Shown: one piece after another, positions 4,721 through 26,717 of the stretch
How positions within the stretch are numbered: position 1 is the first letter of the stretch
How the letters are laid out: each line of letters opens with the position of its first letter
Origin: an uncultured Eubacteriales bacterium
GTDB lineage: Bacteria; Acidobacteriota; Aminicenantia; Aminicenantales; Aminicenantaceae
NCBI GenBank assembly: GCA_964633715.1
Contig: CAZWHQ010000012.1
Coordinates: 8,062 to 72,061 of the forward strand
Direction: 5' to 3'
Length of the DNA: 64,000 nucleotides
Program-made: the position numbers and the translations under genes
The notes under the pieces: model-generated
Told to the model about the DNA's origin: nothing
Database searches by the model: none
Seen by the model: only the letters and a program-made list of their open reading frames with translations

Positions 4721-4748
4721 TGAATTAGAGGTGAATTAGAGGGACATC
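4721..4748 (+). repeat. Tandem short repeat TGAATTAGAGG/TGAATTAGAGGGACATC (REP-like unit, copy A)
   Basis: It sits directly after the permease stop TAG. The same 17-mer recurs at 9560 and, inverted, at 26835. Its core AATT..GGGACA..TC resembles the 27-bp unit of the 26718-26830 palindrome. Confidence 0.7.
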
Positions 4749-9562: not shown

Positions 9563-9590
9563 ATTAGAGGGACATCTGAATTAGAGGGAC
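9560..9590 (+). repeat. Tandem REP-like repeat TGAATTAGAGGGACATC + TGAATTAGAGGGAC (copy B)
   Basis: Exact 17-mer match to copy A. It provides the stop codon of the GH38-like gene and, on the other strand, the MSL* end of the ABC fragment. Confidence 0.7.
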
Positions 9591-10933: not shown

Positions 10934-11166
10934 TGAATAGGTTCACGCTTTTCAAATGTCCCTTGATCCCTATTAAAATCAAAAAAATCGTTAGAGAATT
11001 TATTAAGGCTATCGAAAAGTGGCTGCCAAGGATCTTTATCCTTAGGAATGAGTATGACAACTCCATTGATTTTCTTAATATAGACTTCTTTTCCTGAAAG
11101 AGAATATTCTTTTGGAAGCCTTACGGCTTGGCTGCGACCGTTTAAGAATAATTTCGCTGTATCCAT
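10930..11166 (-). CDS. vapB: AbrB/SpoVT-type antitoxin VapB
   Basis: The internal ATG at 11166 gives MDTAKLFLNGRSQAVRLPKEYSL... (swapped-hairpin fold). A strong RBS GGGAGGT lies upstream. The longer listed ORF is an overextension. Confidence 0.8.
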   Translation of the reverse strand: MDTAKLFLNGRSQAVRLPKEYSLSGKEVYIKKINGVVILIPKDKDPWQPLFDSLNKFSNDFFDFNRDQGTFEKREPIQ

Positions 11167-11313
11167 TATATTACCTCCCTTGGTATATACCATAATATAT
11201 ACCACTTCTAAAAGATTCTCAAGCCCCGACGTACTAAATAGACGTAATTTTAATAGATAATTTCTCAATGAAAATTAGGCATATTAAGTTTTAATTATCT
11301 TTGGAAAATATGG

Positions 11314-11346
11314 ATATATCGCGAAATAATTAATTTCGCGATATAT
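11314..11346 (-). terminator. Perfect 14-bp stem / 5-nt loop hairpin immediately after the kinase-1 stop; likely intrinsic terminator
   Basis: ATATATCGCGAAAT-AATTA-ATTTCGCGATATAT, followed on the transcript strand by a U-rich stretch. Confidence 0.5.
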
Positions 11347-11349
11347 TGT

Positions 11350-14300
11350 TCATGGAACCTTCAATCCAGTCAGTCTCTTCTTCGCATCTTCAACATCGAG
11401 ACTACCAGGATCAGCATCTTTCCAGAGATCAAGGAATTTTTCGTAGTGTTCAATAGCTTTATCTATAAATCCTTTTTTCTCATACAATTTTGCTAATCTG
11501 AAGTGGTATTTTGGGTGAATAAGATATCGCTCTTCTGTATTTGGATCAAATGTAACTAACCGCTCATATTCCACAATGGCTTTTTCTATTTCTCCATTTT
11601 TCTGATACGCCCTAGCCAGGACATCCTTTATGAAGGGCACATTATGGGAGAGGATAAATTGTATTTGAGGAGGTCTTCCCAATTGCGATGCTTTCTCTAA
11701 AATGGCAACCGCTTGGTCAATCGAGCCTTCGGCAAGCAGTATCTCTCCTTGGAGTATGTCATAAGAGAATTTTGCCCTATTTTCATTTGAAGGATCTATT
11801 TCAGGTAGGAGCGACTTCATTTTGGCCAGTCTTGACTTTGCGGAATCGATTCGCCCTTGTTTCAAGTCTATTAATCCGAGATCGAAAGAGTAAAATGCTG
11901 TATTTCCTGGTTCAAATTGAGGCTCATATTCTAAGAAATAATCGAACCATTTTTTAAAGCTTTTCTGGCTAAGTTCAAGCTCGTCCAGTTCATAATAGAC
12001 AGATCCTTTCAGATTTTCAATCAGGGCAACAAACATCTCATTTCTGACCTCTTTGGCTAGGTCCAAAGCCATCTGAAATTCTAGAAGGGACTGTTTTAAG
12101 TTGCCAAGCCAGAAATGATAGAATCCTTTATATAAATATCCAAAGCTCTTTATCCAAGGAATTTGAAAAAAATTAATCTGCAGATCGAGCCATTTCATTG
12201 CTTCAGGATAATTCTCCTTTAATGCATAGATGTATCCGATGCTTAAGCGGGTTATGGGAAAATCCGGTTTAATTTCTAACGCCTCTTTATATTTCACAAT
12301 CGCCTCATCAAGCTTTCCCATCCTCAGATATACTTCGCCCAGGGAATCTATGGGATTGGCATTCCCAGGAGAGACAGTTACATACTTCTTAAAATATTCA
12401 ACTGCTGCCTCAAAATCGCCAATATTTGAATACGTGTAGGCAAGACTATTCATGGCCTCTCCATAGTTTGGATCAAGCTCCAGTGCCGACTGGAACACTT
12501 CTATGGCTTGGTTGAACATATTTAAGTCTTGATAAAATTTACCTAATTCGTAGTGAGCTCTCTTTTCTCCTGGGTATTTTGTCGCTATTTCTTTGAGAAA
12601 CTGAAGCTGCTTTTGTGGATTTTTCTCTACGTCTAATGCATACGATGCTTCGATATAAAGCCGTTCTTTATCGGAGGCATTCTCCGAATAAATTTTTGCC
12701 TTCTCTAAGGCTTCCTCATTCGATCTGGGGTCCGATATACTTCTATATACCTGTGCAAGGTAATAGTATGCCATAGCAAATGTAGAATCGTATTCTATGG
12801 CCTTCTCGAGGAATTGAACGGCCTCATTAAAATAGTATTCTTCAAATGCCTCTCTTCCTTTTAAAAAGTAGTTGTACGCTTCCATTGAAGACGAAGTCAA
12901 TCCGGAAATCTGTGTTTTTACTTCACCCATCTTCTGGCTAGAGCTTCCAATATTTTGGATGATTTTATTGCTGAGTTCATCGATTTGCGTTTTTAGAATG
13001 CTGTCAATGCCCTCGCCTCTTGAACTGGAACTCATCAAAAGGTTCTTTGTCTCCACATCTAATACCTTCACATCTGTGACAAACACATTACCGGCTTTGG
13101 TGTAGCTGCCCAGAACAATCGCAGCTATGCCATCTCTTTGACACAGTTCAAATCCGGAATCACTGTTTATAATCTCGACATCTTCTTTTCCTATTTGCTT
13201 AAGGAGATCTCGCATGCGCTCCCATGTTGTTACATGAAAATTCCCTGTCTGTTCAAGACTGGTTATCAGGAGATTGGGGATCGCTTTTTGTAAATAATCG
13301 TAGGTCTGGTCTCCGGTCTGATTTTCAAAGCTGATAACTGCGATGGAATTTTCAATTATTGGAGCAACTACAATTTTCTTTTTTGGAAGAAGCTTCAGCG
13401 TTAAAACGATGACAATAATGGAAGCAAGGACAATCAGGAAAGGAATTAGAGTTTTTTTCAGGCCAAAGGTCACAGTAATCTCTTTTGATGTTAGAGGCTT
13501 CTTATGCGGGATGGTTCTTCCGGTTGTTGGCAAGCCTTCCTCTATGCTTTTTATATCTTGAAGAACTTCATCTGCACTTTGAAATCTATTCTCTTTTGCT
13601 TTCTCCAAGCACTTTAGAATTACACGGCTGAAATCCTTTGGAATCTGAGGATTGAGTTCAATGGGATCTTTGGGCAGTTCTCCTTTGTGTTTCATGGCAA
13701 TGCTGAGTGGAGTATCTCCGTGGAAAGGAAGCTGCCCCGTCACCATCTCATACAGGATAACTCCCAATGAGTAGATATCAGAGCGAAAATCCACATCTTT
13801 GCCTTCGGCTTGTTCGGGACTCATATATTCAGGAGTTCCGATCATAATCCCGGATCCGGTGATACCTTTGCCTTTTACAGATCGAGCAATCCCGAAGTCC
13901 ATAATCCGGGCACTTCCATTATCATCGATCATGATGTTGTTCGGCTTGAGGTCTCGATGAACAATCCCAATTTTGTGAGCCTCAGATAAGCCCTTACATA
14001 TTTGTTTTCCTATCGAAAGAGCCCTGGACGTGCTCAGCGGTGCAGCCCTTCTGATGAAATTCTTCAAATCTCCACCGGAAACATATTCCATAGTAATATA
14101 ATATGTGTCTTTTTCCCTGTTCAGATCATACATCCGGCAGACATTTTTGTGGGAAATATCACGGGCTGTTTTAAGTTCATTTCTGAAACGCTCAATAGTA
14201 TTCTTATCCACTGCAATCTCAGGTAAAATAAGCTTAAGGGCAACTTTGGTGTTGATTTCTTTATCGAGCACTTTGTAGACTTTGCCCATTCCTCCTTTAC

Positions 14301-14475
14301 CCAATTCCTCAATAATCTGGTACCGTCCGGCAAAAGTAGAGCCTGTCGTGAGTTCTTGTTTGGGTGTTTCTAAAGTGACAGCATCTTTAAGATCAGGGAA
14401 GGGAGTCGCACACTTATTGCAGAATTTTGACTCGTTTGGATTTTCTGTTTGACACTTCGGGCATTCTATAGTCAT
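11350..14475 (-). CDS. Zinc-ribbon / Ser-Thr protein kinase / single TM / extracytoplasmic domain with C-terminal TPR repeats (kinase 1)
   Basis: N-terminal CPKCQTENP...CNKCATPF. Kinase motifs are GKGGMGKVYKV, HRDLKPNNIMID, DFGIAR and GTPEYMSPEQ. One TM (LIPFLIVLASIIVIVL). About 600 aa of TPR-rich sensor region. Confidence 0.9.
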   Translation of the reverse strand: MTIECPKCQTENPNESKFCNKCATPFPDLKDAVTLETPKQELTTGSTFAGRYQIIEELGKGGMGKVYKVLDKEINTKVALKLILPEIAVDKNTIERFRNELKTARDISHKNVCRMYDLNREKDTYYITMEYVSGGDLKNFIRRAAPLSTSRALSIGKQICKGLSEAHKIGIVHRDLKPNNIMIDDNGSARIMDFGIARSVKGKGITGSGIMIGTPEYMSPEQAEGKDVDFRSDIYSLGVILYEMVTGQLPFHGDTPLSIAMKHKGELPKDPIELNPQIPKDFSRVILKCLEKAKENRFQSADEVLQDIKSIEEGLPTTGRTIPHKKPLTSKEITVTFGLKKTLIPFLIVLASIIVIVLTLKLLPKKKIVVAPIIENSIAVISFENQTGDQTYDYLQKAIPNLLITSLEQTGNFHVTTWERMRDLLKQIGKEDVEIINSDSGFELCQRDGIAAIVLGSYTKAGNVFVTDVKVLDVETKNLLMSSSSRGEGIDSILKTQIDELSNKIIQNIGSSSQKMGEVKTQISGLTSSSMEAYNYFLKGREAFEEYYFNEAVQFLEKAIEYDSTFAMAYYYLAQVYRSISDPRSNEEALEKAKIYSENASDKERLYIEASYALDVEKNPQKQLQFLKEIATKYPGEKRAHYELGKFYQDLNMFNQAIEVFQSALELDPNYGEAMNSLAYTYSNIGDFEAAVEYFKKYVTVSPGNANPIDSLGEVYLRMGKLDEAIVKYKEALEIKPDFPITRLSIGYIYALKENYPEAMKWLDLQINFFQIPWIKSFGYLYKGFYHFWLGNLKQSLLEFQMALDLAKEVRNEMFVALIENLKGSVYYELDELELSQKSFKKWFDYFLEYEPQFEPGNTAFYSFDLGLIDLKQGRIDSAKSRLAKMKSLLPEIDPSNENRAKFSYDILQGEILLAEGSIDQAVAILEKASQLGRPPQIQFILSHNVPFIKDVLARAYQKNGEIEKAIVEYERLVTFDPNTEERYLIHPKYHFRLAKLYEKKGFIDKAIEHYEKFLDLWKDADPGSLDVEDAKKRLTGLKVP

Positions 14476-14499
14476 TTTCCCTCACAAGAATGTTTTTAT

Positions 14500-14529
14500 A
14501 AGGATATAAATTATGGAGGAAGGTGTCAA
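14500..14529 (-). promoter_or_regulatory. Conserved promoter element of the kinase paralogs (TTGACACC-N-AATTTATATCCTT)
   Basis: On the coding strand it reads TTGACACCTTCCTCCATAATTTATATCCTT, about 25 nt upstream of the ATG. Near-identical elements occur at 21378-21408 and 25244-25272. Confidence 0.55.
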
Positions 14530-14701
14530 TAATGTCTGAGTAGGGGAGAAGGGGTAAAATAAGGCAATTCTACCGAGATGGATTTGAAAAGGAATAGAAA
14601 TTGAGAAATATCTGTAGGGCAAAACGTCTTAAAAACTAGGAAAGATTAAAAAAGCAACTATATTTCAGTTGCATTTCTTTTTCAAAAATAATATATTCAT
14701 T

Positions 14702-14962
14702 ATGACAAAGCAAGATAAGTTACTAAACAGATTTTTATCGAAACCAAAAAATTTTACTTATAATGAAATGATAAAACTTCTAAAAGGATTCGGTTATCAG
14801 GAAGTAAGATCCGGAAAGACTTCTGGATCCCGTGTCGCCTTTATAAGCACAACTAAACACCATATAATTCGCCTACACAAACCTCATCCCAAAAATATAC
14901 TAAAGAAATATCAACTCGATTTAATAGAAGAAGAGTTGAAAAACCAGGACATTCTAAAATGA
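14702..14962 (+). CDS. hicA: HicA-family mRNA interferase toxin
   Basis: EMIKLLKGFGYQEVRSGKTSGSRVAF...HKPHP matches the HicA fold signature. The start is taken at ATG 14702 (the listed ORF begins at TTG 14669). It overlaps hicB by 4 nt. Confidence 0.7.
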   Translation: MTKQDKLLNRFLSKPKNFTYNEMIKLLKGFGYQEVRSGKTSGSRVAFISTTKHHIIRLHKPHPKNILKKYQLDLIEEELKNQDILK

Positions 14963-15312
14963 AAGATATTCTTAAACATGACGGTTTCATCGGATCTCTT
15001 CATTTCAGTGCAGCCGATGACTGTTTTTTTGGCAAGATTGAAGGAATTGATGACCTGATCACTTTTGAAGGGCAGGACGTCGATGGGCTTAAAAAGGCTT
15101 TTCTGGAAGCGATAGAAGACTACAAAGCACTTTGTATTCAAGCAAATAAACTTATGCATAAATCGTACAAAGGAAGTTTTAATGTTCGGATTGATCCTGA
15201 ATTGCATAAAAAAGCAGTTCAGAAATCTTTGATGATGGGGATATCATTGAACCAACTTGTTCAAAAAGCTATTGAGGAAGAGGTTAAGAATCAGTCCGTT
15301 GACACACTTTGA
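14959..15312 (+). CDS. hicB: HicB-family antitoxin with C-terminal RHH-like DNA-binding tail
   Basis: The size, the ATGA overlap with hicA, and the HicB-like N-domain (HDGFIGSLHFSAADDCFFGKIEGIDDLITFEG) support it. Confidence 0.7.
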   Translation: MKDILKHDGFIGSLHFSAADDCFFGKIEGIDDLITFEGQDVDGLKKAFLEAIEDYKALCIQANKLMHKSYKGSFNVRIDPELHKKAVQKSLMMGISLNQLVQKAIEEEVKNQSVDTL

Positions 15313-15364
15313 AGAGAAAACCTATGGGAAAGGAATATGATCGAAAACTAAACAAAAAGAGAAA

Positions 15365-15673
15365 ATGATGAGAGATATCTATGATGAAGTCAAAGATTTT
15401 TTCCGTGATAATCCTGATGTCGTTATATCTGAAGGGAAAAGTGCACAAGGACTCAAACATAATAACAAGATGTTTGTCATGTTTTATAAGGGAGATTTAA
15501 CGATTAAAGTCAAACCTGAAACGGCTGTAAAGCTCATTGATCAAGGAAAAGGATTTCCTTTTGATCCTGGAACAGGCGTACCAATGAAAGACAGAATCCT
15601 TATCCCTGCTTCCCTGAAAGGGAATTGGATTTCTCTATGTGAATTATCTCTGGAAGAAGTAAAAAGTAAATAA
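15365..15673 (+). CDS. TfoX N-terminal domain-like small protein
   Basis: KMFVMFYKGDLTIKVKPETAVKLIDQGKGFPFDPGTGVPMKDRILIP matches the TfoX_N pattern (MFGG..DG.mFAlv...LylK...pF). Confidence 0.45.
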   Translation: MMRDIYDEVKDFFRDNPDVVISEGKSAQGLKHNNKMFVMFYKGDLTIKVKPETAVKLIDQGKGFPFDPGTGVPMKDRILIPASLKGNWISLCELSLEEVKSK

Positions 15674-15720
15674 GAAATTCATCCACTCCATGATGAAACA
15701 CAACAGCTTTGAAATAACAC

Positions 15721-16935
15721 TTACACTATTAATCTCGGCATCAGCGGATTCAGCCATATCATCACTTTATAACTGGTAATTTCGGTCCATTCGGCTATGT
15801 CAACGGCAGTAATCTCCTCTTTTCCCTGAGTCCCCAGCAGGACAACTTCGTCTCCCATGGATACTCTGGAATCCGGTTTCAGCAGGACTTCCATATGGTT
15901 GGCAGACATATAAGCGACCACCGGACAGCGTTCACCATTGATCAGGACAAAGGTATTTCCCTGGGCGTTATAAGGGTACCCGTTGGAGTAACCAACCGGG
16001 ATAACGGCAATTTTCTCTTTAGTTTTGGCCACATAGGATTTGTTATACGAAACCTGATCTCCCGGGCGCAGGTTTCTGACCACCGCCACGCGGCTTTTAA
16101 GCTGTAAAACAGGCTTCAGTATTATTTCCTTAAATTTTTCCCTAACTTCCCGGGAAGGGTAATATCCGAATAAAAGCAGCCCGGGCCGGACCATATCCAG
16201 GTAAGACGACCTTTGAGAAAAGATTCCGGTAGAGCTCACGGCATGCTTTATTTCCAAAGAGATTCCCTCACTTTCCGCCTGCTGACAGAGGATTTGAAAG
16301 CGTTTGATCTGTACTTTATCCAACTCATCATCTTCACTCATTGCAGTGGAAATCCCTTTTATCCGAAGGCCTTTCCACCCAGCGACTTTCTTGATATAAG
16401 GCATAGCCTCGTAATAGGGGATTCCCATCCTGGCCATTCCCGTATCCACATGAATATGGACATCTGACCTTTTCCCTATCTTGAGTGCCGCGGCGTTCAG
16501 TTCCTGAGCCTTTCCGGTAAATATAGATTGAGATATGTTTTTCTTAATGAGAATCTCTGCAGCGTCCTCATGAAGCGGTCCGAAATTGTGAACAGGACAG
16601 GAAACACCTGCCTCTCTCAATTGGAGTGCTTCGGGGAGACTGACGACCATAAGAGCATCGACTTTTTGTTGATCCAAATAGCGGCCGACTTCCACCAGAC
16701 CATGGCCGTAGCCATTGCATTTAATAACACCCATGATGGGAACCTTGACGAATTTTCTTAACTGTTCCAGATTCCATCCCATATTCTCCAGCTTCAATTC
16801 GATCCAGACGTCATCATAAGAACTGTTCTGGTCTTTGCTTCCTAAAAGTGGTTTATCAAAGTCCATTCCGCCGGTCAGGTATGCAGCAGAGCTCACGCCG
16901 GCGAATGACAGGAAATCCCTTCTGTTTATTTTCAT
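15721..16935 (-). CDS. alr: Alanine racemase family (PLP) with twin-arginine (Tat) signal peptide; putative periplasmic broad-spectrum amino-acid racemase
   Basis: Start at ATG 16935 with a perfect GGAGG RBS. MKINRRDFLSFAGVSSAAYL is a Tat motif. VIKCNGYGHG contains the PLP-lysine motif. There is a C-terminal beta-domain. Confidence 0.8.
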   Translation of the reverse strand: MKINRRDFLSFAGVSSAAYLTGGMDFDKPLLGSKDQNSSYDDVWIELKLENMGWNLEQLRKFVKVPIMGVIKCNGYGHGLVEVGRYLDQQKVDALMVVSLPEALQLREAGVSCPVHNFGPLHEDAAEILIKKNISQSIFTGKAQELNAAALKIGKRSDVHIHVDTGMARMGIPYYEAMPYIKKVAGWKGLRIKGISTAMSEDDELDKVQIKRFQILCQQAESEGISLEIKHAVSSTGIFSQRSSYLDMVRPGLLLFGYYPSREVREKFKEIILKPVLQLKSRVAVVRNLRPGDQVSYNKSYVAKTKEKIAVIPVGYSNGYPYNAQGNTFVLINGERCPVVAYMSANHMEVLLKPDSRVSMGDEVVLLGTQGKEEITAVDIAEWTEITSYKVMIWLNPLMPRLIV

Positions 16936-16990
16936 TTTCCCTCCTCTACAAAAATAGACAAGCAGACCTATTAGACACAATCATACAATC

Positions 16991-17245
16991 TTGTACAACC
17001 GATTATCTCTGCTTATAAAGGACTTCATGAAATTGGTTTTTTTTGCCAACATCATTGCCATCCCTATTGCATATTTTTTTATGAACAGGCTAATCCATTT
17101 TATTTACACTTATCCCATAACGATTGGGGCCGAAGTTTTTATTGTTTGTGCTGTCCTTTCATTGCTGGTGGCCTTCATAACTGTTTCGTCTCAGACCATA
17201 AAATCGGCTTTATTGAATCCAGCAGACAGCTTGAGATACGAGTGA
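16991..17245 (+). pseudogene. Orphan C-terminal fragment of an FtsX/MacB-type ABC permease
   Basis: It ends ...LLNPADSLRYE, the canonical FtsX permease C-terminus. Only about 84 aa remain. It is a paralog of the fragment at 52058..52309. Confidence 0.6.
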
Positions 17246-17601
17246 AGCACTCATCAGAGGATCTCTGCTAAGAAACTAAAGATAAGGACTATAAATCTTA
17301 TTATTATCGGGACAGCAGGCTGGAACTGATGGGGATCTAACCCACGACCCCTTGGCTGCCAGTCATGCTTTCAGTATAGACCTTTCCCTTGTGTAACAAT
17401 ATCCTATGTCAATAACAAATTTACTAACGGTGCCCTCTGATAAGGTGTTTTGTTCTTCAGCGGTAGTTTGTAAGTTTTCTTTCCCTTACGAAGGACGCCA
17501 ATCCCAGCCTCGCTGAAGTTGAAGATACAAAGAAAAGGCGGTGGGATTGAAGGAATAATTCACTTTCCTGAAAAAATCTGAAAAATATCTTTTCCGGATC
17601 G

Positions 17602-18048
17602 TCAAATCTTCTCGAGTTTTTCGATATCGGCAAGGTCCTGTTTTCTTCCTGAAATGCGCTTGCAGTGTATCAGGTCCTGTTTTGATATAAAGAAGACAGA
17701 GATATCCCCATACTGCCCGGAAACGCGGTTTGGCCAGAAATTATTGAAATCCGTTCCCTTAATAGAGGTCAAAATGTCGATCCTCACTGGATCCATGCCC
17801 AATTGGATAATTTGGCCGGGTTCCATAAAATCTTTATCAGTCAGTTTGAGATCTTCAAAGCCAAAATCTTTGATGGCATCCAAAATATTCTTGGCATTTT
17901 TCTGGGTTTGCTCGATGAGGATATCGATATCTTTGGTATAGCGCGGCTCAGCGTAAAAACTGTAGGCAAATCCTCCGATTATTAAGTAGTGGACGTCATG
18001 CCTGTTTAATAACGCGATAAATTCTTTGAAATCCTTTTCGACTCTCAT
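17602..18048 (-). CDS. Nucleotidyltransferase-fold protein (DUF6036-like)
   Basis: LIIGGFAYSFYAEPRYTKDIDILI matches the hG[GS]x9-13DhD nucleotidyltransferase motif. Confidence 0.6.
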   Translation of the reverse strand: MRVEKDFKEFIALLNRHDVHYLIIGGFAYSFYAEPRYTKDIDILIEQTQKNAKNILDAIKDFGFEDLKLTDKDFMEPGQIIQLGMDPVRIDILTSIKGTDFNNFWPNRVSGQYGDISVFFISKQDLIHCKRISGRKQDLADIEKLEKI

Positions 18049-18181
18049 TTTTCAATTCATAATACATATCTCTCAGCTGTTGAAGCGCATCCAGCTTTTC
18101 TTCGGAAGTTTTGGACTTCCAGAAAGCTATGTCTTTTTTTTCGGCCTCTGCAAAAGATAATTTCCTCAGATTCTTTTCCAT
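17996..18181 (-). CDS. Small helical protein upstream of and overlapping the nucleotidyltransferase gene; possible antitoxin-like partner
   Basis: 61 aa, charged and helical (…EEKLDALQQLRDMYYELKN…). Same strand, 53-nt overlap with the NTase ORF. Confidence 0.35.
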   Translation of the reverse strand: MEKNLRKLSFAEAEKKDIAFWKSKTSEEKLDALQQLRDMYYELKNESRKGFQRIYRVIKQA

Positions 18182-18413
18182 ATTGTTATTCTACCAGAGC
18201 TCTTCATAATTCTCTATAATTCTTTATTCTCATTTCTTTATTCACATTGAAACTCCAATCCTAAATCTATAATGCCATTTCTGTGGGCGGCTAGATTTAT
18301 AAGAATTATTTATAAGAATTTCCTTTTTGTCTTTGCTCCGAATTCCTCATAAATTTCCTCAAAATCTACCCGCTGACAACTGAAATTAGAATTATCATAT
18401 CAAAACGGTAAGG

Positions 18414-18614
18414 TCAATGGCTCATAAAGCCAAACAACTTCCCCCTATGAGCATTGGCATAGAGTCCTGAGTTACGAATCATGACCTGGCCTTTATCGGG
18501 AATATGGGAGGTGACTCTGGCGATAAACTCCAGATAATCGATATGCTCTGAATCTGTGCTGTGCTTTCCGTATTGATAGATTACCTGCCCTTGGGCCTCA
18601 TCAAAGGAAAGCCG
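18414..18614 (-). mobile_element. Remnant 3' end of an IS91-family (HUH/Y2 rolling-circle) transposase gene
   Basis: EHIDYLEFIARVTSHIPDKGQVMIRNSGLYANAHRGK aligns with the IS91 TnpA C-terminus (…LEfIgR…P.…H.vRyyGlLAnahR). The upstream half of the listed ORF is an alternate frame of the TolB tail. Confidence 0.5.
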
Positions 18615-21353
18615 CTTGAGAGAATGGATCGGTCTTATCATGTACTCTTCCATATCCGGATATATCAAACAGCATCCTCGGCTTTCCCGGAATAATGTCT
18701 GGATAAGATTGAATATCAACGACCCATACATGGCTTTCGTTTGTATAGAAAAGATGTCTTCCATCCCCTGCCCAAAGCGGTTGGTATCCTCCATTTAGGG
18801 ATATCTTCTGACGGCCACCATCTGGACTCAATGACTGAACATAGACTTCATAAATTCCCGTTTCATTTGAGCGATATGCAAGCCAAAGGCCATCAGGAGA
18901 AAACTAGGGATATTTGAGATTAAAATTCGACGGCGAGAAAGGTTTTGCGCTCTTGTTCAGGATATCAAAAAGGAAAGCGGTATTGGAATCTCCTTGAATT
19001 TCCACAAACGTCAGCAAATCCCCTTCAGGAGACCATGAACCAGAATATTTTTCAGTATCATTTTTATAAAGAAGTTCCATCTTTTCGCCATCAGCTTGAA
19101 TTAAGTAAAGGTCAGATGCTACAGACTGAATCCAACTGAAGGCAAGCTGCTTTCCATCTGGAGGAACCCAATTCACATAAGAAGCCACCCCCTCCGATGT
19201 TAACATGGTTGGGATATCTCGAGTGAGGTCATATACCCACAACCGTGGTTCGAGCCCCAAGGTCGTATAGGCAATCTTCTGACCATCAGGAGAAAGCCGG
19301 GGAGCAAAAAAATGTCCCTCTAAAGAGCCTATCGGTTGTTCTGTACCCATCTGATCCACCCAAACAAGGGAGTTTTTCTTGTCAGGGATAATTCCACCAG
19401 CTACATATACCAACTCTCCTGAATTTGAAATGCTGAATAATCCGGAGCCAATATCGGAAAAGAGATTCCCAAAGTTTAACGCCTGCATTACCCCAGAGAC
19501 GATCGGGACAGCACGTCCGATATTTTCAGGTTTATTAATGTCAAAAGGAACAACCATCAGAGTCCCCTGACGAATGAAGATAATATGTCCCGTCTGGATA
19601 TATCGGGCATCTGAGCCGTCCTTCAACAAAATCCTCCACTGATGGGTTTCGGGATCTAAAAAACCTATATCAGGATAGGGCTCATTTTTGGGGTACATGA
19701 TGGTAAATAGAATCCCTTTTCCCAAAGGAAGGACGTGAGGAAGCCGATGGCTGACTTCCTCCCGATTGCGATCTGGTATTGTCAATGGCTCCGTTTCACC
19801 GCTTCCAGCAGAAATGCTGGAAAGCCCTTTATCCCAATCCGAAGAAAATACGATCATTCCATCATCCCCCCAACTGACTCCAAAGGGCCGGGAGACTTCA
19901 CATAATTCCTGGGGGATGCCTCCTCCAACCTGCACCTTCCAGAGTTTATTTTCTGCCCAAAAGCCAACCCACTTGTCATCAGGAGACAGGAATGGGCTGC
20001 CTCCCCCTTCTGTTCCGGCGATGGGAGTAGCTTCCAGTTCGTCAAGTTGTCTAATAAAAAGCTGAGGTATTCGATTTGGTTCGCCATCATCCTTGAGCGC
20101 ACTATAAACAAGGAAATTTCCGTCCCGGGAAATGGCCATGGCAGTCCTGGTTGGCCGTTTAAGAGAATTAATTCTGTACGATCCCCCAAGGGAGTATCCC
20201 GGCCCTAACTTGATCACAGATCGAACTTGTAAAGTAGATAGTTCAATATTGGTAGATCTTTTCACCAAGGAACCGATAAGAATACCTGTAAGGATTAAAA
20301 CTGTTCCGCCTGCGATCATCCAGGCTATTGGAAAACGCTGCTTGGCAGAAAAATCTTCAGTAGGCAGGTCGGCCGGTTCAGCAATCTCGATCCGGGCGTC
20401 AGCAATATCGTGGAGACGCATCCTGGGGTCCTTCTGTAAACATCGGCGAAGAAGCGCCCTTATCCCTCGGGAAGTATTTGATGGAAGTACTGTCCAGTCT
20501 GGTTCGCCCTTTAAGACAAGAGCTAGAGTGTCTGATAGGGTTTCTCCTTGAAGCGGCCGTTTTCCTGATAGACATTCATAAAGTACACTTCCAAAGCCCC
20601 AATGTCAGTCCTTTTATCAACTGCATGGCTCCTGGCTTGCTCTGGGCTCATATAGGCAGCTGTGCCTAAAATAATGCCTGGCTGGGTCATCCGGTCTGTA
20701 AGAGTTGGGGACTTGGAGAGGTCAGTCGCTTTAGGTTCCTCTTGGAAGACTTTTGCCAATCCAAAATCGAGGATCTTAACCTTGCCTTCTGGAGATATCA
20801 TTATGTTTCCCGGTTTTAGATCCCGGTGGATGATTCCTTTTTCATGGGCCGATTCAAGACCCTCCGCTATCTGGCTGCATATTTCAAGAGCCTCGTCCAT
20901 AGGAAGCGGTCCTTTAATTATTCTTTCGGCTAAGGTTTTTCCTTCCACTAATTCCATCACAAGGAACTGCTGTCCATTAGACTTCTCAAGTCCATGGATT
21001 GTCGCGATGTTTTGATGGTTGAGCGATGCCAGTAGTCGGGCTTCCCTTTCGAACCGAGCCAATCGTTCCTTATCCAAAGCAAACGGTTGGGGGAGAACTT
21101 TGACGGCAACCTGACGTTTCAGGCTTGTGTCTTCTGCCAGGTAGACTTCTCCCATTCCTCCCTTACCTAGTTCGCTGATGATTTCGTATCTATTTGCTAA
21201 AGATGTTCCTGGCTTGAATTGAGGATAGGGAGTTTTAATAGTCTTTGTAACTTCAGGAGTATTGATTGACGAACTTAGGTCAGTCCCACAATCACCACAG
21301 AAATTCTTTGTATCAGGATTATCGGTATGACATTTCGGGCATTCGGTTCCCAT
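18601..21353 (-). pseudogene. Kinase 3: zinc-ribbon / Ser-Thr kinase / TM / TolB-like beta-propeller, disrupted by a -1 frameshift near 20605 and an in-frame TAG at 18904-18906
   Basis: Frame A (20523..21353) has the CPKCHTDNP zinc ribbon and kinase subdomains I-IX. The next reading frame continues with HWGFGSVLYECLSGKRPLQGET...CLQKDPRMRLHDIADARIEI (subdomains IX-XI) into the 505-aa ORF. Restoring one T in a homopolymer gives DIWGFGSV. After the TAG at 18904-18906 the same frame continues with FSPDGLWLAYRSNETGIYEV... to 18601. Confidence 0.75.
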
Positions 21354-21377
21354 CGTTCCTCTTTGCTATAGCGACAT

Positions 21378-21408
21378 AAGGATATAAATTTTAGTGAGCG
21401 GGTGTCAA
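21378..21408 (-). promoter_or_regulatory. Conserved kinase-paralog promoter element (copy upstream of kinase 3)
   Basis: AAGGATATAAATT-N11-GGTGTCAA on the plus strand, equivalent to TTGACACC…AATTTATATCCTT on the coding strand. Confidence 0.5.
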
Positions 21409-21521
21409 ATGAGAATACCGGCTCTAAATATTGTTAGGAAACAACCCCTTTCCAAAACATATGGGAAAAAATCAATTATCTCATTCAGAAATGCAGAAAA
21501 GAATTTCCCCGTTAAGATATA

Positions 21522-22052
21522 TCATTGAATGCCAGGAACTAGAGCACTTTTGCTTAGTTTCTCCAGAGTTTTTTGGATTTCCGCATCTGATTTTCCTTGA
21601 ATTTGAATCTTTTTATTAATCCCTAAAACCGTTCCAAGCACTGCACCAGCGACTCCGCCAATAGCTCCAAATGTGATATATTTTTGATTAGGCTCAAAAG
21701 ACCTAGATTGACTTTTTGTGGCTGACCCATAGAGTATGCCAGCTAACACTCCATAAATACCCACTTGCAATACCCTAGATTTTGTCACAATCGTGATCAT
21801 TTCCACTTCCTTTATCAGTATCTGCGATGAAATATCTGCATTTATTTCTGCAGACATTAACAATAACGAATCCTTTTTAACAGTGATGAGTTCACCTGTT
21901 ACTTGTTGACCATCATTTTTCTGAATCCTCAGTTTGGCTCCTTTTCTTACACTTCTGGACAAGTCTTGTGCCATCAAATTCCATGAAAACGCCACTAAAG
22001 AAAGAACAAGCAGCAGTGAAACGATTCCTTTTCTTTTTTCTCCTATAAGCAT
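21522..22052 (-). CDS. Secreted small protein with C-terminal glycine-zipper motif
   Basis: Start at ATG 22052 with a perfect AAGGAG RBS. Signal peptide MLIGEKRKGIVSLLLVLSLVAFSWNLMAQ. C-terminus AIGGVAGAVLGTVLG. It lies between kinases 2 and 3 on the same strand. Confidence 0.6.
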   Translation of the reverse strand: MLIGEKRKGIVSLLLVLSLVAFSWNLMAQDLSRSVRKGAKLRIQKNDGQQVTGELITVKKDSLLLMSAEINADISSQILIKEVEMITIVTKSRVLQVGIYGVLAGILYGSATKSQSRSFEPNQKYITFGAIGGVAGAVLGTVLGINKKIQIQGKSDAEIQKTLEKLSKSALVPGIQ

Positions 22053-22114
22053 TGAACTGTCTCCTTTGTGGATATACATGAAAAGTTAGAGCACCAAGCT
22101 CGGTAAACCTAAAT

Positions 22115-25100
22115 TCATTCTTTCAACCCAGCCAGTCTCTGCTTCGCGTCATCGACTTCAGGGAGGCCGGGATCGGCGTCTTTCCAGAGGTCTAGGAATT
22201 TCTCGTAATTCTCGATGGCAATGGTTTTGTCGCCCTGTTGTTCGTGAATCTTACCGAGCATATAAAAAGCCTTAGCATAAATATTGCCCCAATAAAGCCT
22301 GCCCCATGTCAAGGAAATTATCGTTTCATAATTCTCTTGGGCATTCTCTAAGTCTCCCGCCTTAAAGTTGGCAAAAGCCAAGGAATCGTAAAATAAAGCA
22401 TCAAATGTAGAGTGACCAGATTTTTGAGAGGGTAAAACGGACAATGTTTTCTTAAAATATTCAACAGCAAGCGAATAGTTGTTTTTCTTTTGCTCTATTC
22501 CTCCTTGCAAATGATAATAAAATCTTATGATTTTTTTGTATATTCCATTCTCAATAAATTCTTTTAGTTCATCTGCTGTTTCCTGAGCTTTATCAATAGA
22601 ATTCATCCCAATGTAGGCAAGTCCCTTCTGCCAAAGAGCGACTCTTTGCCTAGAAAGGCTTTCCGTCTCCAAGGCAAAATCCAAATACTTCTCATTTTCT
22701 TTCAAAGCTGAGCTAAAATCTCCAATTGAAAGATAATGTTCGCACAAATAAAGATGAGTATAGGATTCAGCTGAAGCATTTGAAGCTTGAATCGATAACT
22801 CACGCCTCTTTTCAATTTGTTCTTTTGATTCTCTAAATTTCCCTTCAGCCCGATATAATAATGACAAGCGGAACATACTTCCCCTAACATAGCCTTCATT
22901 CGAAGTATCGGCAAGTTTTTGGAATTCTTTTTCTGCTTCTAAAAAATCTCCTTTCAACAAGTAAATATCTCCAAAATAATAATAAATCCCATGATAAGTT
23001 GGGTCGAGGGAAAAGGCTTTGTTTGCTTCATTCAATGCAAGGTCAAATTCTCCCTGAGAAGCATAAATAGTGGATATTCGTCTGCGAAGAAATGCAGAAT
23101 CGGAAAAGCTTTTGGTATAATCTTCAAGTATTTCTCTGGCTTTATCATAAAGTCCTTTAGCTTCATACATAATTGACATTCCATTGTAGGTAACAGTAGA
23201 AGAGACTTTTTGCTTCATGTTCGCTTCATATGGTTTGATAGCCTTATCCCATTCTTCTATTTGAGAATATACCCATGCCAGGTTACTATTCGCCATCCTA
23301 TCATCAGGATAGAGTTCTAGTAGTTTGATATAAGCTTCAATACTTTTATCAAAGGTCTTCTCTGAAACATTGTAGAAATCTCCTTCGATGATATACCGCT
23401 CTCGCTCCGATATACGTTCTCTCAGTTCAAAAGCTTTCTGGATATAAACTTTTTCTTTATCTAAATTACGAAGATTGTAGGAAGCTGCTGCCATACTTCT
23501 GTAGGCCATTGCAATTCCTGGATCAAGGTCGACAGCTTTCTCCATAATTGCTATGCTATTCTCCCATTCCCGATTGCGAAAAAATTCTCTACCCTTGCTG
23601 TAAAACTTAAAAGCTTCAGGTATTGCGGTTGTAATTTCCCTTAACTCTTTGTTGATATCCTCTGCTATTAGTCTTGGAGATAGATCCAGGTCTGACTTGA
23701 TCTGGTTTGACACCTCGTCTACTTTGGAAATGATCTCTTCTTCTCCAATACATTCAATACGCAAAGAGTTTATAACCTCACCTGTCTGCTGACTTTGAAG
23801 CGATAAAGTGATGATGATGTTTTGCCCGGGTTTCAAGATGCTTCCACTTAAAGTGTGGGAAGCTCTTCCTTCGCTTGCAACTTTTACGAGATCTTCTTTG
23901 GTATATTTTTTGCCCTCATCCAGATTGAGCTTCTTTAAGATACTGTAGACCGTGTTTCCGTCTAACACATTGATGTATTTTGATTGAGCAAGCTTTATGA
24001 TGAGCAGTTCAGTGAGTCCCATTTCCCAGGCATCCAGGCTGCTATCGCTTGAGAGATTATCAAAGTAGAGGATAGCAAGGGATGGTTTTTCTGTTAGAGA
24101 TGGAATGAATTCTTTCTTTGGGATAAACTGCAAGATCATGAATGTGATGACGGCCAGAGCAATGATTCCAATTGTGGGGATTAGGAGTTTTTTTACTTTG
24201 AACTTTACTGTTATCTCCTTTGAAGTTACCGACTTTTTTTTCGATACAATCCTGTCAGTAGTAGGAATTCCTTTCTCAATATTCTCTAATTCAGACCGTA
24301 ATTCTTCTGCACTCTGATAACGGTTTTCCCTATCTTTTTCTAGACATTTCAAAATCAACTGGTTGAAGTCGTCTGGGATTCGCTCATTAAAATTCTTGGG
24401 AGCTTTTGGAGTTTCAGTCCTTTGTTTGACTCCAACAGTAATAGCGGAATCCCCTTCAAAGGGCACCCTGTCTGTCAGCATTTTGTAGAGGATAATTCCT
24501 AGAGAATAAATATCCGATCTCTGATCGACATCTTTTCCTTCAACTTGCTCAGGTGACATATATTCTGGAGTACCGATTATGGCTCCAGATCCTGTAATGC
24601 TTTTTCCTTTGACAGCCCTGGCAATACCAAAGTCCATAATCCTTACGTTCCCGCCCCTGTCGATCATGATATTGTTGGGTTTAAGGTCTCTGTGGATTAT
24701 CCCAAGGCTGTGTGCTTCCTTGAGTCCAGCACAAATTTGCTTGGCAATTGAAACGGCTTTTCCAACCGTAAGTTGTCCTGTCTGGCGAATCAATCCTTTT
24801 AAATCCTGTCCAGAGATGTATTCCATGGTGATGTAGTGGAGGTTCTTCTCTTCCCCCAAATCAAACATCGCACAGACATTCTTGTGCCTTATCTTTCGTG
24901 CAAACTTAAGTTCATTCCTGAATCGTTCAATAGTTTTTTTATCTGCTGCAATTTCAGGTTTGATGAGCTTTAAAGCAACTTCTTCTTTGACCTTAGTATC
25001 TTCTACTCTATAAACTTTACCCATCCCTCCTTTACCCAGTTCTTCGATAATTTCGTACCTGTCAACGAAAGTACTTCCGCGAGTTAATGCTTCCGTAGAA

Positions 25101-25219
25101 GTTTCATATGTTTTGGTGAGGACTCCCTCTCTTGCATCAGGAAGAGGAGTGTCACACTCACCACAGAATTTCTGAGAATCAGGATTATCTGTGTGACACT
25201 TAGGGCATGTTGTGCTCAT
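22115..25219 (-). CDS. Zinc-ribbon / Ser-Thr protein kinase / TM / TPR-repeat sensor (kinase 2), paralog of kinase 1
   Basis: CPKCHTDNP...CGEC. Kinase motifs GKGGMGKVYRV, HRDLKPNNIMID, DFGIAR and GTPEYMSPEQ. A TM segment and a long TPR region. The C-terminus DLWKDADPG..DAKQRLAGLKE parallels kinase 1. Confidence 0.9.
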   Translation of the reverse strand: MSTTCPKCHTDNPDSQKFCGECDTPLPDAREGVLTKTYETSTEALTRGSTFVDRYEIIEELGKGGMGKVYRVEDTKVKEEVALKLIKPEIAADKKTIERFRNELKFARKIRHKNVCAMFDLGEEKNLHYITMEYISGQDLKGLIRQTGQLTVGKAVSIAKQICAGLKEAHSLGIIHRDLKPNNIMIDRGGNVRIMDFGIARAVKGKSITGSGAIIGTPEYMSPEQVEGKDVDQRSDIYSLGIILYKMLTDRVPFEGDSAITVGVKQRTETPKAPKNFNERIPDDFNQLILKCLEKDRENRYQSAEELRSELENIEKGIPTTDRIVSKKKSVTSKEITVKFKVKKLLIPTIGIIALAVITFMILQFIPKKEFIPSLTEKPSLAILYFDNLSSDSSLDAWEMGLTELLIIKLAQSKYINVLDGNTVYSILKKLNLDEGKKYTKEDLVKVASEGRASHTLSGSILKPGQNIIITLSLQSQQTGEVINSLRIECIGEEEIISKVDEVSNQIKSDLDLSPRLIAEDINKELREITTAIPEAFKFYSKGREFFRNREWENSIAIMEKAVDLDPGIAMAYRSMAAASYNLRNLDKEKVYIQKAFELRERISERERYIIEGDFYNVSEKTFDKSIEAYIKLLELYPDDRMANSNLAWVYSQIEEWDKAIKPYEANMKQKVSSTVTYNGMSIMYEAKGLYDKAREILEDYTKSFSDSAFLRRRISTIYASQGEFDLALNEANKAFSLDPTYHGIYYYFGDIYLLKGDFLEAEKEFQKLADTSNEGYVRGSMFRLSLLYRAEGKFRESKEQIEKRRELSIQASNASAESYTHLYLCEHYLSIGDFSSALKENEKYLDFALETESLSRQRVALWQKGLAYIGMNSIDKAQETADELKEFIENGIYKKIIRFYYHLQGGIEQKKNNYSLAVEYFKKTLSVLPSQKSGHSTFDALFYDSLAFANFKAGDLENAQENYETIISLTWGRLYWGNIYAKAFYMLGKIHEQQGDKTIAIENYEKFLDLWKDADPGLPEVDDAKQRLAGLKE

Positions 25220-25243
25220 CTTCCCTCCTACCTATGTGACAAT

Positions 25244-25272
25244 AGGGTATAAATTTAAGCGATGGGTGTCAA
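25244..25272 (-). promoter_or_regulatory. Conserved kinase-paralog promoter element (copy upstream of kinase 2)
   Basis: AGGGTATAAATTT-N10-GGTGTCAA is located about 25 nt upstream of the ATG at 25219, after an AGGAGGG RBS. Confidence 0.5.
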
Positions 25273-26693: not shown

Positions 26694-26717
26694 CTCTCTC
26701 AGCTTCTCTTTGACCCA

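What the first reader, a model, noticed from the sequence alone, without database searches (positions are those of the whole stretch)
11350..25272. Tandem array of three paralogous zinc-ribbon Ser/Thr kinases with swapped sensor domains and a shared promoter
Kinase 1 (TPR sensor), kinase 2 (TPR sensor) and kinase 3 (TolB-like beta-propeller sensor) all begin with a CPKC…C..C zinc ribbon fused to a Hanks-type kinase and a single TM. Each is preceded by the same element (TTGACACC–N10-11–AATTTATATCCTT) about 25 nt upstream of the ATG. That implies duplication of gene plus promoter and co-regulation. A secreted glycine-zipper protein is inserted between kinases 2 and 3. The N-terminal zinc ribbon on a transmembrane sensor kinase is uncommon and suggests a cytoplasmic nucleic-acid or protein-docking function.
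Basis: partly seen in the sequence, partly recalled or inferred. Interest (0 to 1): 0.6.

Follow-up and report, generated by a model that had tools for sequence, protein, structure and literature searches.

The report
Aminicenantes receptor kinases sharing one promoter
This stretch of an uncultured sediment bacterium (Aminicenantes) holds two intact and two decayed copies of a very large, undescribed family of membrane sensor kinases. Every family member carries the same promoter-like sequence in front of a small zinc-binding head, which is a modestly interesting evolutionary pattern rather than a new kind of system.

Summary
Three same-strand genes start with a CPKC…CxxC zinc ribbon fused to a Hanks-type kinase. 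Each is preceded, 24-25 nt before the ATG, by TTGACACC-N9-10-AATTTATA(T/C)CCT. Two copies are exact and one has 2 mismatches; shuffles give 0.

Three parts of the interpretation need correction.
- **Kinase 3 is decaying.** It has a 1-nt frameshift, an in-frame TAG and a 3' end cut by an IS91-like fragment. A fourth kinase remnant lies at 4736-6137.
- **These are not recent tandem duplicates.** K1 and K2 share 62% identity in the cytoplasmic head but only 22-26% in the sensor. K3 belongs to a separate, old propeller subfamily. K2 and K3 are each closer to homologues in other Aminicenantes genomes than to the other kinases here.
- **The architecture is common in this phylum.** There are over 230 full-length homologue clusters, and most carry the ribbon.

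The element reads as a sigma-70-type promoter: -35 TTGACA, 17-18 bp spacer, -10 TA(T/C)CCT. It belongs to a family-wide head cassette, found before 73 of 99 kinase starts in 1.27 Mb of related genomes. TTGAC-17/18-TAnnCT precedes 49% of kinases and 2.5% of other genes. Among promoter-bearing genes, the -10 is preceded by TGn in 35/49 kinases and 8/40 others. Promoter activity and co-regulation are inferred, not shown.

The parts
11350..14475 (-). K1: intact 1041-aa receptor Ser/Thr kinase. Order of domains: zinc ribbon, linker, Hanks kinase, one TM, alpha/beta domain, TPR superhelix.
   Evidence: ORF and translation. Pkinase E=1.3e-60 and many TPR families. Head is 62% identical to K2, sensor 22-26%.
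14501..14529 (-). K1 promoter-like element: -35 TTGACA (14529-14524), 17-nt spacer, -10 TATCCT (14506-14501). A Shine-Dalgarno GAGGGAAA follows, then the ATG 25 nt after the -10.
   Evidence: Homology to orthologues L095/L101 starts about 8 nt upstream of the -35.
11314..11346 (-). Terminator-like 14-bp hairpin immediately after the K1 stop codon.
22115..25219 (-). K2: intact 1034-aa receptor kinase with the same architecture as K1.
   Evidence: It is 52-62% identical over full length to more than 100 homologue clusters. AlphaFold2 model has mean pLDDT 83.5.
25244..25272 (-). K2 promoter-like element: -35 TTGACA (25272-25267), 17-nt spacer, -10 TACCCT (25249-25244). The ATG is 24 nt after the -10.
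21522..22079 (-). 185-aa signal-peptide and glycine-zipper ORF starting 35 nt after the K2 stop. Probably co-transcribed with K2.
   Evidence: No Pfam, NCBIfam or PADLOC match. Homologues lie next to kinases in L026 and L003.
21379..21408 (-). K3 promoter-like element: -35 TTGACA (21408-21403), 18-nt spacer, -10 TATCCT (21384-21379). The ATG is 25 nt after the -10.
20523..21353 (-). K3 5' fragment: zinc ribbon plus the N-terminal 3/4 of the kinase domain. The reading frame is lost at about 20601, where one T of ATT-TGG is missing.
   Evidence: The same frameshift is in the independent JGI contig.
18649..20421 (-). K3 3' fragment: end of the kinase domain, TM and Tricorn/PD40-type propellers. 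There is an in-frame TAG at 18904-18906. Homology to orthologues stops at about 18649, about 50 codons short.
   Evidence: The TAG is GAG in the JGI contig.
18414..18794 (-). Fragment of a Y2 (IS91-type) transposase. Its homology begins where K3 homology ends, so it is the likely cause of the 3' truncation.
   Evidence: Y2_Tnp E=1.1e-8, residues 50-115. Junction derived.
4736..6137 (-). Fourth family member, now a 5'-truncated and fragmented remnant: kinase C-lobe, then TPR pieces in three short ORFs. It has no head and no promoter.
   Evidence: tblastn with K1/K2. ORFs. TPR hits.

Best explanation
**What it is.** The window comes from an Aminicenantes genome. It holds a loose cluster of four members of a very large, lineage-expanded family of receptor Ser/Thr kinases: two intact (K1, K2), one decaying (K3) and one remnant. 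Family members share a conserved head cassette: a sigma-70-type promoter, a roughly 18-nt leader with a GGAGG-like ribosome site, a Cys4 zinc ribbon, a disordered linker, a PknB-like kinase and one TM helix. This head is joined to fast-diverging or different extracytoplasmic sensors: an alpha/beta domain plus a long TPR superhelix, or tandem beta-propellers.

**What the shared element is.** It is that cassette's promoter: -35 TTGACA, 17-18 bp spacer, -10 TA(T/C)CCT. It is shared because the whole family carries it, not because these three genes duplicated here recently. It is kept by selection, and probably also by recombination or gene conversion between paralogue heads.

**How it most likely works.** Each kinase is transcribed from its own similar promoter. 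The periplasmic sensor binds a ligand or partner. The kinase autophosphorylates its activation-loop Thr and phosphorylates cytoplasmic targets. The tethered ribbon and linker act as a docking or regulatory module.

**Shown versus inferred.** Shown: sequence anatomy, homology, conservation statistics and gene decay. Inferred: promoter activity, membrane topology, signalling steps and the ribbon's role.
For: **Organism and family size**
- Homologues are named Candidatus Aminicenantes. More than 119 clusters of about 1030 aa match K2 at 52-62%, and more than 118 clusters of about 955 aa match K3 at 51-59%.
- 134 kinase heads occur in 81 related loci, up to 7 per 23 kb.

**Active-kinase features**
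- Pkinase E=1e-60. PknB 1mru E=1.6e-66 by sequence and TM-score 0.83-0.86 by fold.
- The Gly-loop glycines, the Lys, HRDLKxxN, DFG and the activation-loop Thr are invariant.
- Model: ribbon 1-29, disordered 30-52, kinase 53-318, TM helix 349-364, alpha/beta domain 380-510, TPR 515-1033.

**Old paralogy**
- K1/K2 heads are 62% identical and sensors 22-26%.
- The K3 head is 65% identical to the propeller family on average (maximum 83%) but 38% to the TPR family.

**Promoter**
- Exact repeats with 0 expected by chance.
- 73/99 kinase starts in other genomes have TTGAC-17/18-TAnnnT, 23-30 nt before the start in most.
- Family consensus is TTGACT…TTGaTATtCTTTtgCCA.
- TAnnCT form: 49% of 85 kinase upstream regions against 2.5% of 439 others.
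- C at -10 position 5: 42/49 against 11/40, p=2e-8. TGn: 35/49 against 8/40, p=2e-6.
- 60 of 72 strong PWM hits precede kinases, and several others precede kinase-head stubs.
- The -60..0 segment is more conserved between paralogues (0.60-0.98) than kinase-domain DNA (0.51-0.80) or DNA further upstream (about 0.4-0.5).
- Orthologue homology starts at the -35.
- The window's own variant precedes at least 13 kinases of at least 5 subtypes in metagenomes.

**Recombination hints**
- P0130 shares K3's exact leader and first 13 codons, then continues like a different paralogue.
- Lineage-specific promoter variants and TTG start codons are shared across subfamilies.
Against: - No transcript data. The element is only a consensus match, and such matches are common (53 found against 37 expected in the 17-kb region).
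- The PWM and the specificity counts were trained and tested on homologous genes, so shared ancestry inflates them. The within- versus between-genome promoter similarity (0.55 against 0.41, and 0.68 against 0.46) could partly reflect base composition.
- The three window copies lack the TGn and GCCA features of the family consensus.
- In L106 the TTTATATCCT variant goes with the K3 subtype only, which weakens a simple lineage-specific reading.
- K3 keeps a perfect promoter although the gene is broken, so conservation here may just reflect recent inactivation.
- The sensor's periplasmic location rests on one predicted TM helix.
Confidence: 0.72

Rival explanations
1. Dedicated regulon. The family-specific promoter form (C at -10 position 5, TGn, GCCA at the start site) is read by a dedicated sigma-70-family factor, or overlaps the site of a family-specific regulator. 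The whole kinase repertoire, plus a few secreted proteins, would then be switched together.
For: - The family-specific signature is absent from other promoters in the same genomes.
- Lineage-specific variants are shared by different subfamilies within a genome.
- A few secreted or peptidase-like genes carry the same element.
Against: - The hexamers and spacing fit an ordinary housekeeping sigma.
- No candidate factor was identified.
- Several of the 'other' genes sit behind kinase-head stubs, so promoter capture by rearrangement explains them.
- The window copies lack TGn and GCCA.
Confidence: 0.22
2. One reading: a recent local tandem duplication copied gene plus promoter, followed by a sensor swap at this locus.
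For: Same strand, same head, same element, and K2 and K3 nearly adjacent.
Against: - Only 37-41% protein identity.
- K2 and K3 are each closer to homologues in other genomes.
- Promoter spacers differ and nothing upstream of the -35 aligns.
- K3-type and TPR-type kinases also lie together in other genomes.
Confidence: 0.04
3. The element is simply the generic housekeeping promoter of this organism, and the similarity between copies carries no family-specific meaning.
For: TTGAC-17/18-TAnnnT is also enriched before other genes: 9.1% against 0.5% in shuffles.
Against: - The -10 position 5 and TGn preferences differ sharply between kinase and non-kinase promoters.
- 13- and 8-nt blocks are identical between genes that are 39% identical as proteins.
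- 83% of strong PWM hits precede kinases, which are 13% of genes in the loci.
Confidence: 0.1
4. The kinases are anti-phage defence kinases (PD-T4-6-, MADS6- or PglW-like) sitting in a defence or mobile island.
For: - PADLOC PD-T4-6 hits down to E=1e-105, and MAD6 hits.
- VapBC, HicAB, a DUF6036/AbiEii-like nucleotidyltransferase and IS fragments lie nearby.
Against: - The hits cover only the generic kinase domain. NCBIfam scores are far below cut-offs (MAD6 199-206 against 460; PglW 86 against 990).
- No partner genes of those systems are present.
- The receptor architecture with large periplasmic sensors, and many copies per genome, fits environmental sensing.
Confidence: 0.03
5. The conserved segment is a small mobile promoter-bearing element that inserted in front of unrelated kinase genes.
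For: - The homology boundary lies just upstream of the -35.
- A tRNA-3'-half-like sequence abuts the -35 in some lineages.
- The element also occurs before non-kinase genes.
Against: - No terminal inverted or direct repeats lie around the window copies.
- Conservation runs without a break into the leader and zinc-ribbon codons.
- Spacers differ between copies.
Confidence: 0.04

Closest known systems
PknB/Stk1-type Hanks receptor Ser/Thr kinases (Mycobacterium tuberculosis PknB, PDB 1mru)
   Same: Cytoplasmic kinase domain with all catalytic motifs, 38-41% identical in fold alignment. One TM helix and an extracytoplasmic sensor. Activation-loop Thr residues.
   Different: No PASTA repeats. NCBIfam PknB_PASTA_kin scores 364-377 bits against a cut-off of 450. 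An N-terminal Cys4 zinc ribbon on a disordered tether is added. The sensor is an alpha/beta domain plus about 500 aa of TPR.
M. tuberculosis PknD (kinase, TM, beta-propeller sensor)
   Same: K3 and its roughly 955-aa orthologues have the same logic: kinase, one TM, extracytoplasmic beta-propeller.
   Different: The propellers are PD40/Tricorn_N/Tricorn_2nd type, not NHL. The PknD model scores 153-183 bits against a cut-off of 839. A zinc ribbon is present. The window copy is a pseudogene.
PknG (actinobacterial kinase with rubredoxin-like Cys4 domain and TPR domain; PMC8546545)
   Same: A Cys4 metal-binding module N-terminal to the kinase, a flexible N-terminal region, and a C-terminal TPR domain.
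   Different: [quoted passage not shown] Here a TM helix puts the TPR outside the cell, and the ribbon is separated from the kinase by a 22-residue low-confidence linker. No PknG structure appeared among the listed best sequence or fold matches.
Sensor module of TIGR04510 'putative peptide modification system cyclase'
   Same: Residues about 376-775 of K1/K2 (alpha/beta domain plus TPR) align with the C-terminal part of that family, E=1e-38 to 1e-40. The sensor module is therefore shared with other output domains.
   Different: Scores are far below the cut-off (131-137 against 400). The output here is a kinase, not a cyclase.
Extended -10 sigma-70 promoters (TTGACA-17-TGnTATAAT)
   Same: Family consensus TTGACT-N17-18 with TGn directly before the -10, and a short leader.
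   Different: The -10 is TAT(T/C)CT with a strongly preferred C at position 5. The window copies have TTTA instead of TTGA, so they lack the TG.

Membership tests
Hanks-type (eukaryotic-like) Ser/Thr protein kinase | Protein kinase fold with the Gly-rich loop, beta3 Lys, alphaC Glu, HRDLKxxN, DFG and SPE motifs | tested here: met
   Pfam Pkinase E=1e-60/6e-62/1e-42. The Gly-loop glycines, K84, E103, H176-N183, D196-G198 and the S and E of SPE are invariant, and P223 nearly so, in 64 sequences. PknB fold match TM-score 0.83-0.86.
Hanks-type (eukaryotic-like) Ser/Thr protein kinase | Catalytic activity (autophosphorylation) | not testable with these tools
   Needs purified protein.
Receptor kinase (kinase, single TM, extracytoplasmic sensor) | One TM helix between the kinase and the C-terminal domain | tested here: met
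   AlphaFold2 helix 349-364 in K2, flanked by Lys clusters. Hydrophobic stretches lie at the same place in K1 and K3. Topology itself is inferred.
PknB/Stk1 PASTA kinases (NF033483) | PASTA repeats and whole-protein score above the cut-off | tested here: not met
   364-377 bits against a cut-off of 450. Only the kinase domain aligns.
PknD (NF009651) | Whole-protein match including the NHL propeller | tested here: not met
   153-183 bits against a cut-off of 839. The propeller is PD40/Tricorn type.
PknG-like kinases | Soluble protein with a rubredoxin-like domain packed next to the catalytic core and a cytoplasmic TPR | tested here: not met
   A TM helix lies between kinase and TPR, and the ribbon sits on a disordered tether. 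PknG description from PMC8546545.
Zinc ribbon (Pfam Zn_Ribbon_1 / DZR) | CxxC-N(10-14)-CxxC knuckles | tested here: met
   Pfam E=1e-5 (K3) and 2e-4 (K2), near or just under the gathering score. C5, C8, C19 and C22 are invariant. Metal binding was not tested.
Sigma-70-type promoter | -35 and -10 hexamers at 16-18 bp spacing, placed upstream of the gene | tested here: met
   10/12 matches at K1 and K3. K2 has TTGACA-17-TACCCT. The -10 is 24-25 nt from the ATG.
Sigma-70-type promoter | Transcription starts there | not testable with these tools
   Needs 5'-RACE, dRNA-seq or in vitro transcription.
Anti-phage kinases (PD-T4-6, MADS6, BREX PglW) | Full-length match and system partner genes | tested here: not met
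   Matches are limited to the kinase domain. NCBIfam MAD6 scores 199-206 against 460 and PglW 86 against 990. No partner genes are in the window.

The most novel reading that the evidence does not exclude
The head (promoter, leader, zinc ribbon, kinase) is a portable expression-and-signalling cassette. Gene conversion or ectopic recombination keeps it uniform among dozens of paralogues per genome. This lets new sensor tails be grafted on, leaves 'promoter + ribbon' stubs behind, and places the whole kinase repertoire under one family-specific promoter type. That would amount to a phylum-wide, concertedly evolving 'kinome regulon'.
Probability: 0.2. Interest if true: 0.65.

Novelty: new variant of a known kind. 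Interest (0 to 1): 0.38.

Why it matters
Bacterial Hanks-type receptor kinases are well known, and this locus is a routine sample of one family, half of it decayed. The value lies at the family level.

- **Family size.** Aminicenantes, an uncultured and abundant sediment group, carries a very large, undescribed expansion of zinc-ribbon-headed receptor kinases.
- **An unusual conservation pattern.** Their non-coding promoter and leader are better conserved between paralogues than the kinase domain itself.
- **A testable handle.** The family offers a defined consensus, mutable positions and a clear prediction for transcription start sites. This could address how large sensor families are expressed and diversified.
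- **Candidates for study.** The conserved Cys4 head and the TxT[LI]xTP linker motif are candidates for regulatory docking.

None of this changes current understanding unless the regulon or gene-conversion reading is confirmed.

Tried and rejected
- **Exact look-up of K1** found nothing. K2 was found on a JGI contig and served instead.
- **Rfam** on the whole window returned no RNA family, so the element is not a known leader RNA. The leader is only about 18 nt long.
- **ARAGORN** found no tRNA in the window or next to the tRNA-like fragments in L014, L028 and L025.
- **Invertible-promoter or mobile-element reading.** No inverted or direct repeats flank the three promoters.
- **PADLOC and NCBIfam defence hits** were rejected as generic kinase-domain matches.
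- **PknG-like reading** was rejected because of the TM helix and the tethered ribbon.
- **Literature searches** (Aminicenantes plus kinase; zinc ribbon plus Hanks-type; zinc-ribbon plus Thr kinase plus TPR) found no description of this family. One search failed on syntax.
- **Simple lineage-specific promoter variant.** Only partly upheld. In L106 the TTTATATCCT form is confined to the K3 subtype.
- **Bins labelled outside Aminicenantes** (L033, L038, L039, L050) do not show the cassette at the usual distance.
- **First PWM scan** timed out and was rewritten.

Full report
**1. What is in the window**

All relevant genes lie on the minus strand.
- K1 (11350-14475, 1041 aa) and K2 (22115-25219, 1034 aa) are intact.
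- Each has CPKC-N10-CxxC in the first 22-25 residues, a Pkinase domain (E=1e-60 and 6e-62) and many TPR matches in the C-terminal 500 aa.
- The third gene starts the same way at 21353. It is split into a 276-aa ORF (20523-21353) and a 505-aa ORF (18904-20421) that contains a hydrophobic segment and PD40 repeats.

Upstream elements:
- TTGACACC-N9/10-AATTTATATCCTT is exact before K1 (14500-14529) and K3 (21378-21408). It occurs in none of 100 shuffles.
- K2 has TTGACACC-N9-AATTTATACCCTA at 25243-25272.
- The consensus scan reads these as -35 TTGACA, 17-18 nt, -10 TATCCT.
- The -10 ends 24-25 nt before each ATG, and a GGAGG-like site lies in between.
- Upstream of the -35 the three regions do not align.

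**2. K3 is decaying, and there is a fourth remnant**

- Restoring one T at about 20601 (GAC ATT [T]GG GGC) joins the two K3 ORFs into one kinase-TM-propeller protein.
- Intact orthologues are about 950-960 aa and 51-59% identical.
- Against them, the window copy also has an in-frame TAG at 18904-18906. Homology then continues to about 18649 and stops about 50 codons early.
- At that point the homology of a Y2/IS91-type transposase fragment begins.
- An independent JGI contig of the same organism is 99.95% identical over 14.7 kb. It has the frameshift and the truncation but GAG instead of TAG. The gene is therefore really degenerating, and the nonsense change is polymorphic.
- A fourth family member survives only as a kinase C-lobe plus TPR pieces at 4736-6137.
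- K3 and K1 are separated by about 4.4 kb. This stretch holds an alanine racemase, HicAB, a DUF6036 nucleotidyltransferase and the transposase fragment. VapBC, a truncated ABC-transporter piece, a SprT-like gene and an ISL3 fragment lie around the cluster.

**3. Organism and family**

- K2's homologues are named Candidatus Aminicenantes. The best 119 clusters are all about 1030 aa, cover 94-100% of K2 and are 52-62% identical.
- K3's best clusters are propeller kinases annotated Tricorn_N/Tricorn_2nd/PD40.
- A scan of species-representative genomes returned 79 loci (1.27 Mb), almost all Aminicenantes MAGs. They contain 134 kinase heads, often 2-7 per 23 kb.
- K1 and K2 are 62% identical in residues 1-330, but only 22% in the post-TM domain and 26% in the TPR part.
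- K1/K2 heads are on average 65% identical to TPR-type homologues from other genomes and 36% identical to propeller-type ones. The K3 head shows the reverse: 65% (maximum 83%) against 38%.
- The two sensor types therefore belong to old subfamilies whose kinase domains co-segregate with the sensor.
- Further sensor types occur on K1/K2-like heads, such as an 833-845-aa short-TPR form.
- Mixed TPR and propeller clusters recur elsewhere.
- The zinc ribbon is the rule. Its four cysteines are invariant in 64 aligned sequences, and it is present in 117/120 and 99/119 homologue clusters.
- No searchable paper describes the family.

**4. Protein anatomy**

- The closest solved structures are PknB kinase domains (E=1.6e-66, residues 46-320). 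Nothing solved covers the ribbon. Foldseek agrees.
- The AlphaFold2 model of K2 has mean pLDDT 83.5. It gives the ribbon at 1-29, a low-confidence linker at 30-52, the kinase at 53-318, a disordered juxtamembrane stretch, a TM helix at 349-364, an alpha/beta domain at 380-510 and a continuous TPR superhelix to residue 1033.
- The linker holds a conserved T-x-T-[LI]-x-T-P motif exactly 27 residues before the Gly loop in 81/120 TPR-type homologues.
- The alpha/beta plus TPR module also resembles the C-terminal part of TIGR04510 cyclases, well below the family cut-off.
- No NCBIfam model reaches its cut-off.

**5. The upstream element across the family**

- Of 99 zinc-ribbon kinase starts in the related loci, 73 have TTGAC-17/18-TAnnnT, and in most the -10 lies 23-30 nt before the start codon.
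- The consensus is atTTGACTctc…aaTTGaTATtCTTTtgcCAa. That is a -35, an extended -10 TGn, a -10 of TAT(T/C)CT and GCCA at the expected start site.
- In the same loci, TTGAC-17/18-TAnnnT occurs before 58% of kinases and 9.1% of 439 other genes, against 0.5% in shuffles. General sigma-70-type promoters therefore exist in these genomes.
- The TAnnCT form occurs before 49% of kinases and 2.5% of other genes.
- Among promoter-bearing genes, C at -10 position 5 is found in 42/49 kinases against 11/40 others (p=2e-8; one kinase per locus, p=4e-7). TGn is found in 35/49 against 8/40 (p=2e-6).
- Of 72 strong PWM hits in 2.5 Mb of scanned strands, 60 precede zinc-ribbon kinases. Several of the rest precede kinase-head stubs, such as MTVKCPKCQTENPDAQKF-stop followed by a peptidase gene.
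- The PWM was trained on these kinases, and all kinases are homologous. These figures show family specificity, not independent recurrence.

**6. Conservation pattern**

- Between paralogues in one genome, the non-coding -60..0 segment is 0.60-0.98 identical, kinase-domain DNA is 0.51-0.80 and the -200..-100 segment is about 0.4-0.5.
- For the window trio, the values are 0.60-0.71 for -60..0 and 0.51-0.62 for kinase-domain DNA.
- K1's close orthologues in other metagenomes (L095, L101) are alike from about 8 nt upstream of the -35 onward and unrelated before it.
- A metagenome scan for the window's own variant gave 24 loci. Of the 19 with TATCCT, at least 13 are followed by zinc-ribbon kinases of at least five subtypes.
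- At non-selected promoter positions, within-genome pairs are more alike than between-genome pairs at equal protein identity: 0.55 against 0.41, and 0.68 against 0.46.
- In the L014/L028/L109 lineage, TPR-type and propeller-type kinases share CTCTGTTAGTCTGAGGCCAAG and a TTG start codon.
- P0130 has K3's exact leader and first 13 codons, then the sequence of another paralogue.
- These points suggest recombination or gene conversion among heads, or co-evolution with a trans factor. Neither is proven. L106 is a counter-example, where the TTTA form is confined to the K3 subtype.

**7. Explanation**

- The best-supported reading is a loose cluster of members of a large birth-and-death family. The common head cassette includes its own sigma-70-type promoter.
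- The shared element is that promoter. It is inherited and maintained family-wide, rather than copied in a recent local duplication.
- Each gene is probably transcribed on its own. K1 has its own terminator-like hairpin. The glycine-zipper ORF is probably co-transcribed with K2, and homologues occur beside kinases in L026 and L003.
- Signalling presumably follows the PknB paradigm. The role of the ribbon is open.
- Rivals considered: a dedicated regulon, a recent duplication, a generic promoter, defence kinases and a mobile promoter element. They are weighed in the rival-explanations section.

**8. Verdict**

- The kinases are a new variant of a known kind.
- The one feature of wider interest is the family-wide, family-specific promoter/head cassette and the signs of its concerted evolution.
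- Interest is 0.38.

Noticed in passing
window 4721-4751 and 9560-9596: 20-nt direct repeats TGAATTAGAGGGACATC(A/T)GA bracket a 4.8-kb segment holding the kinase remnant and a GH38 alpha-mannosidase gene (6194-9562). The truncated ABC-transporter ORF at 9564-10037 ends (…MSL-stop) inside the right-hand repeat, and the remnant ORF at 4736-5089 ends at the left-hand copy. This may mark an insertion or rearrangement junction.
   Followed up: no
window 26717-26827: A 53-nt inverted repeat, 98% complementary, built from 26-nt units TAATTGGGGACAGTCCCTACTTTTTA. It lies right next to an ISL3 transposase fragment (26421-26693).
   Followed up: no
window 18906 (and 12164, 12177, 17135, 18407): The window differs from JGI contig KVRMV2_100034852 at 5 substitutions and 2 indels in 14.7 kb. 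One substitution makes the K3 TAG stop (GAG in the JGI version), so the nonsense change is polymorphic or assembly-specific.
   Followed up: partly
L004 (-) ~597; L019 (-) ~11081; L018 +4793; L060 +18469; L086, L089, L090, L091, L094: 'Promoter + zinc-ribbon stub' remnants. Each has an intact promoter and leader followed by only 16-90 kinase codons, then a stop or an unrelated gene such as a peptidase. They are frequent enough to suggest repeated rearrangement just after the head.
   Followed up: partly
L014 (before 15578, 19015), L028 (before 245, 8048), L025 (before 9994): A tRNA-3'-half-like sequence (…GGTTCGAATCC…CCA) ends about 4 nt before the -35 of several kinases. ARAGORN finds no complete tRNA there.
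   Followed up: partly
K2 residues 33-39 (TKTYETS), K1 residues 33-39 (VTLETPK); family-wide: Conserved linear motif T-x-T-[LI]-x-T-P exactly 27 residues before the Gly-rich loop in 81/120 TPR-type homologues, and in relaxed form in 79/119 propeller-type ones. It lies in a segment AlphaFold2 leaves disordered. It could be a phospho-acceptor or docking site.
   Followed up: partly
window 10535-11268, 14669-15312, 17602-18048: VapBC-like and HicAB toxin-antitoxin pairs and a DUF6036/AbiEii-like nucleotidyltransferase are interspersed with the kinases. Together with the IS fragments, this marks the region as a plasticity zone.
   Followed up: no
P0122 residues 3-26: The zinc ribbon also weakly matches the N-terminus of an NCBIfam Ser/Thr phosphatase model (PRK14559, E=3e-4). 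The same head may therefore occur on phosphatases.
   Followed up: no
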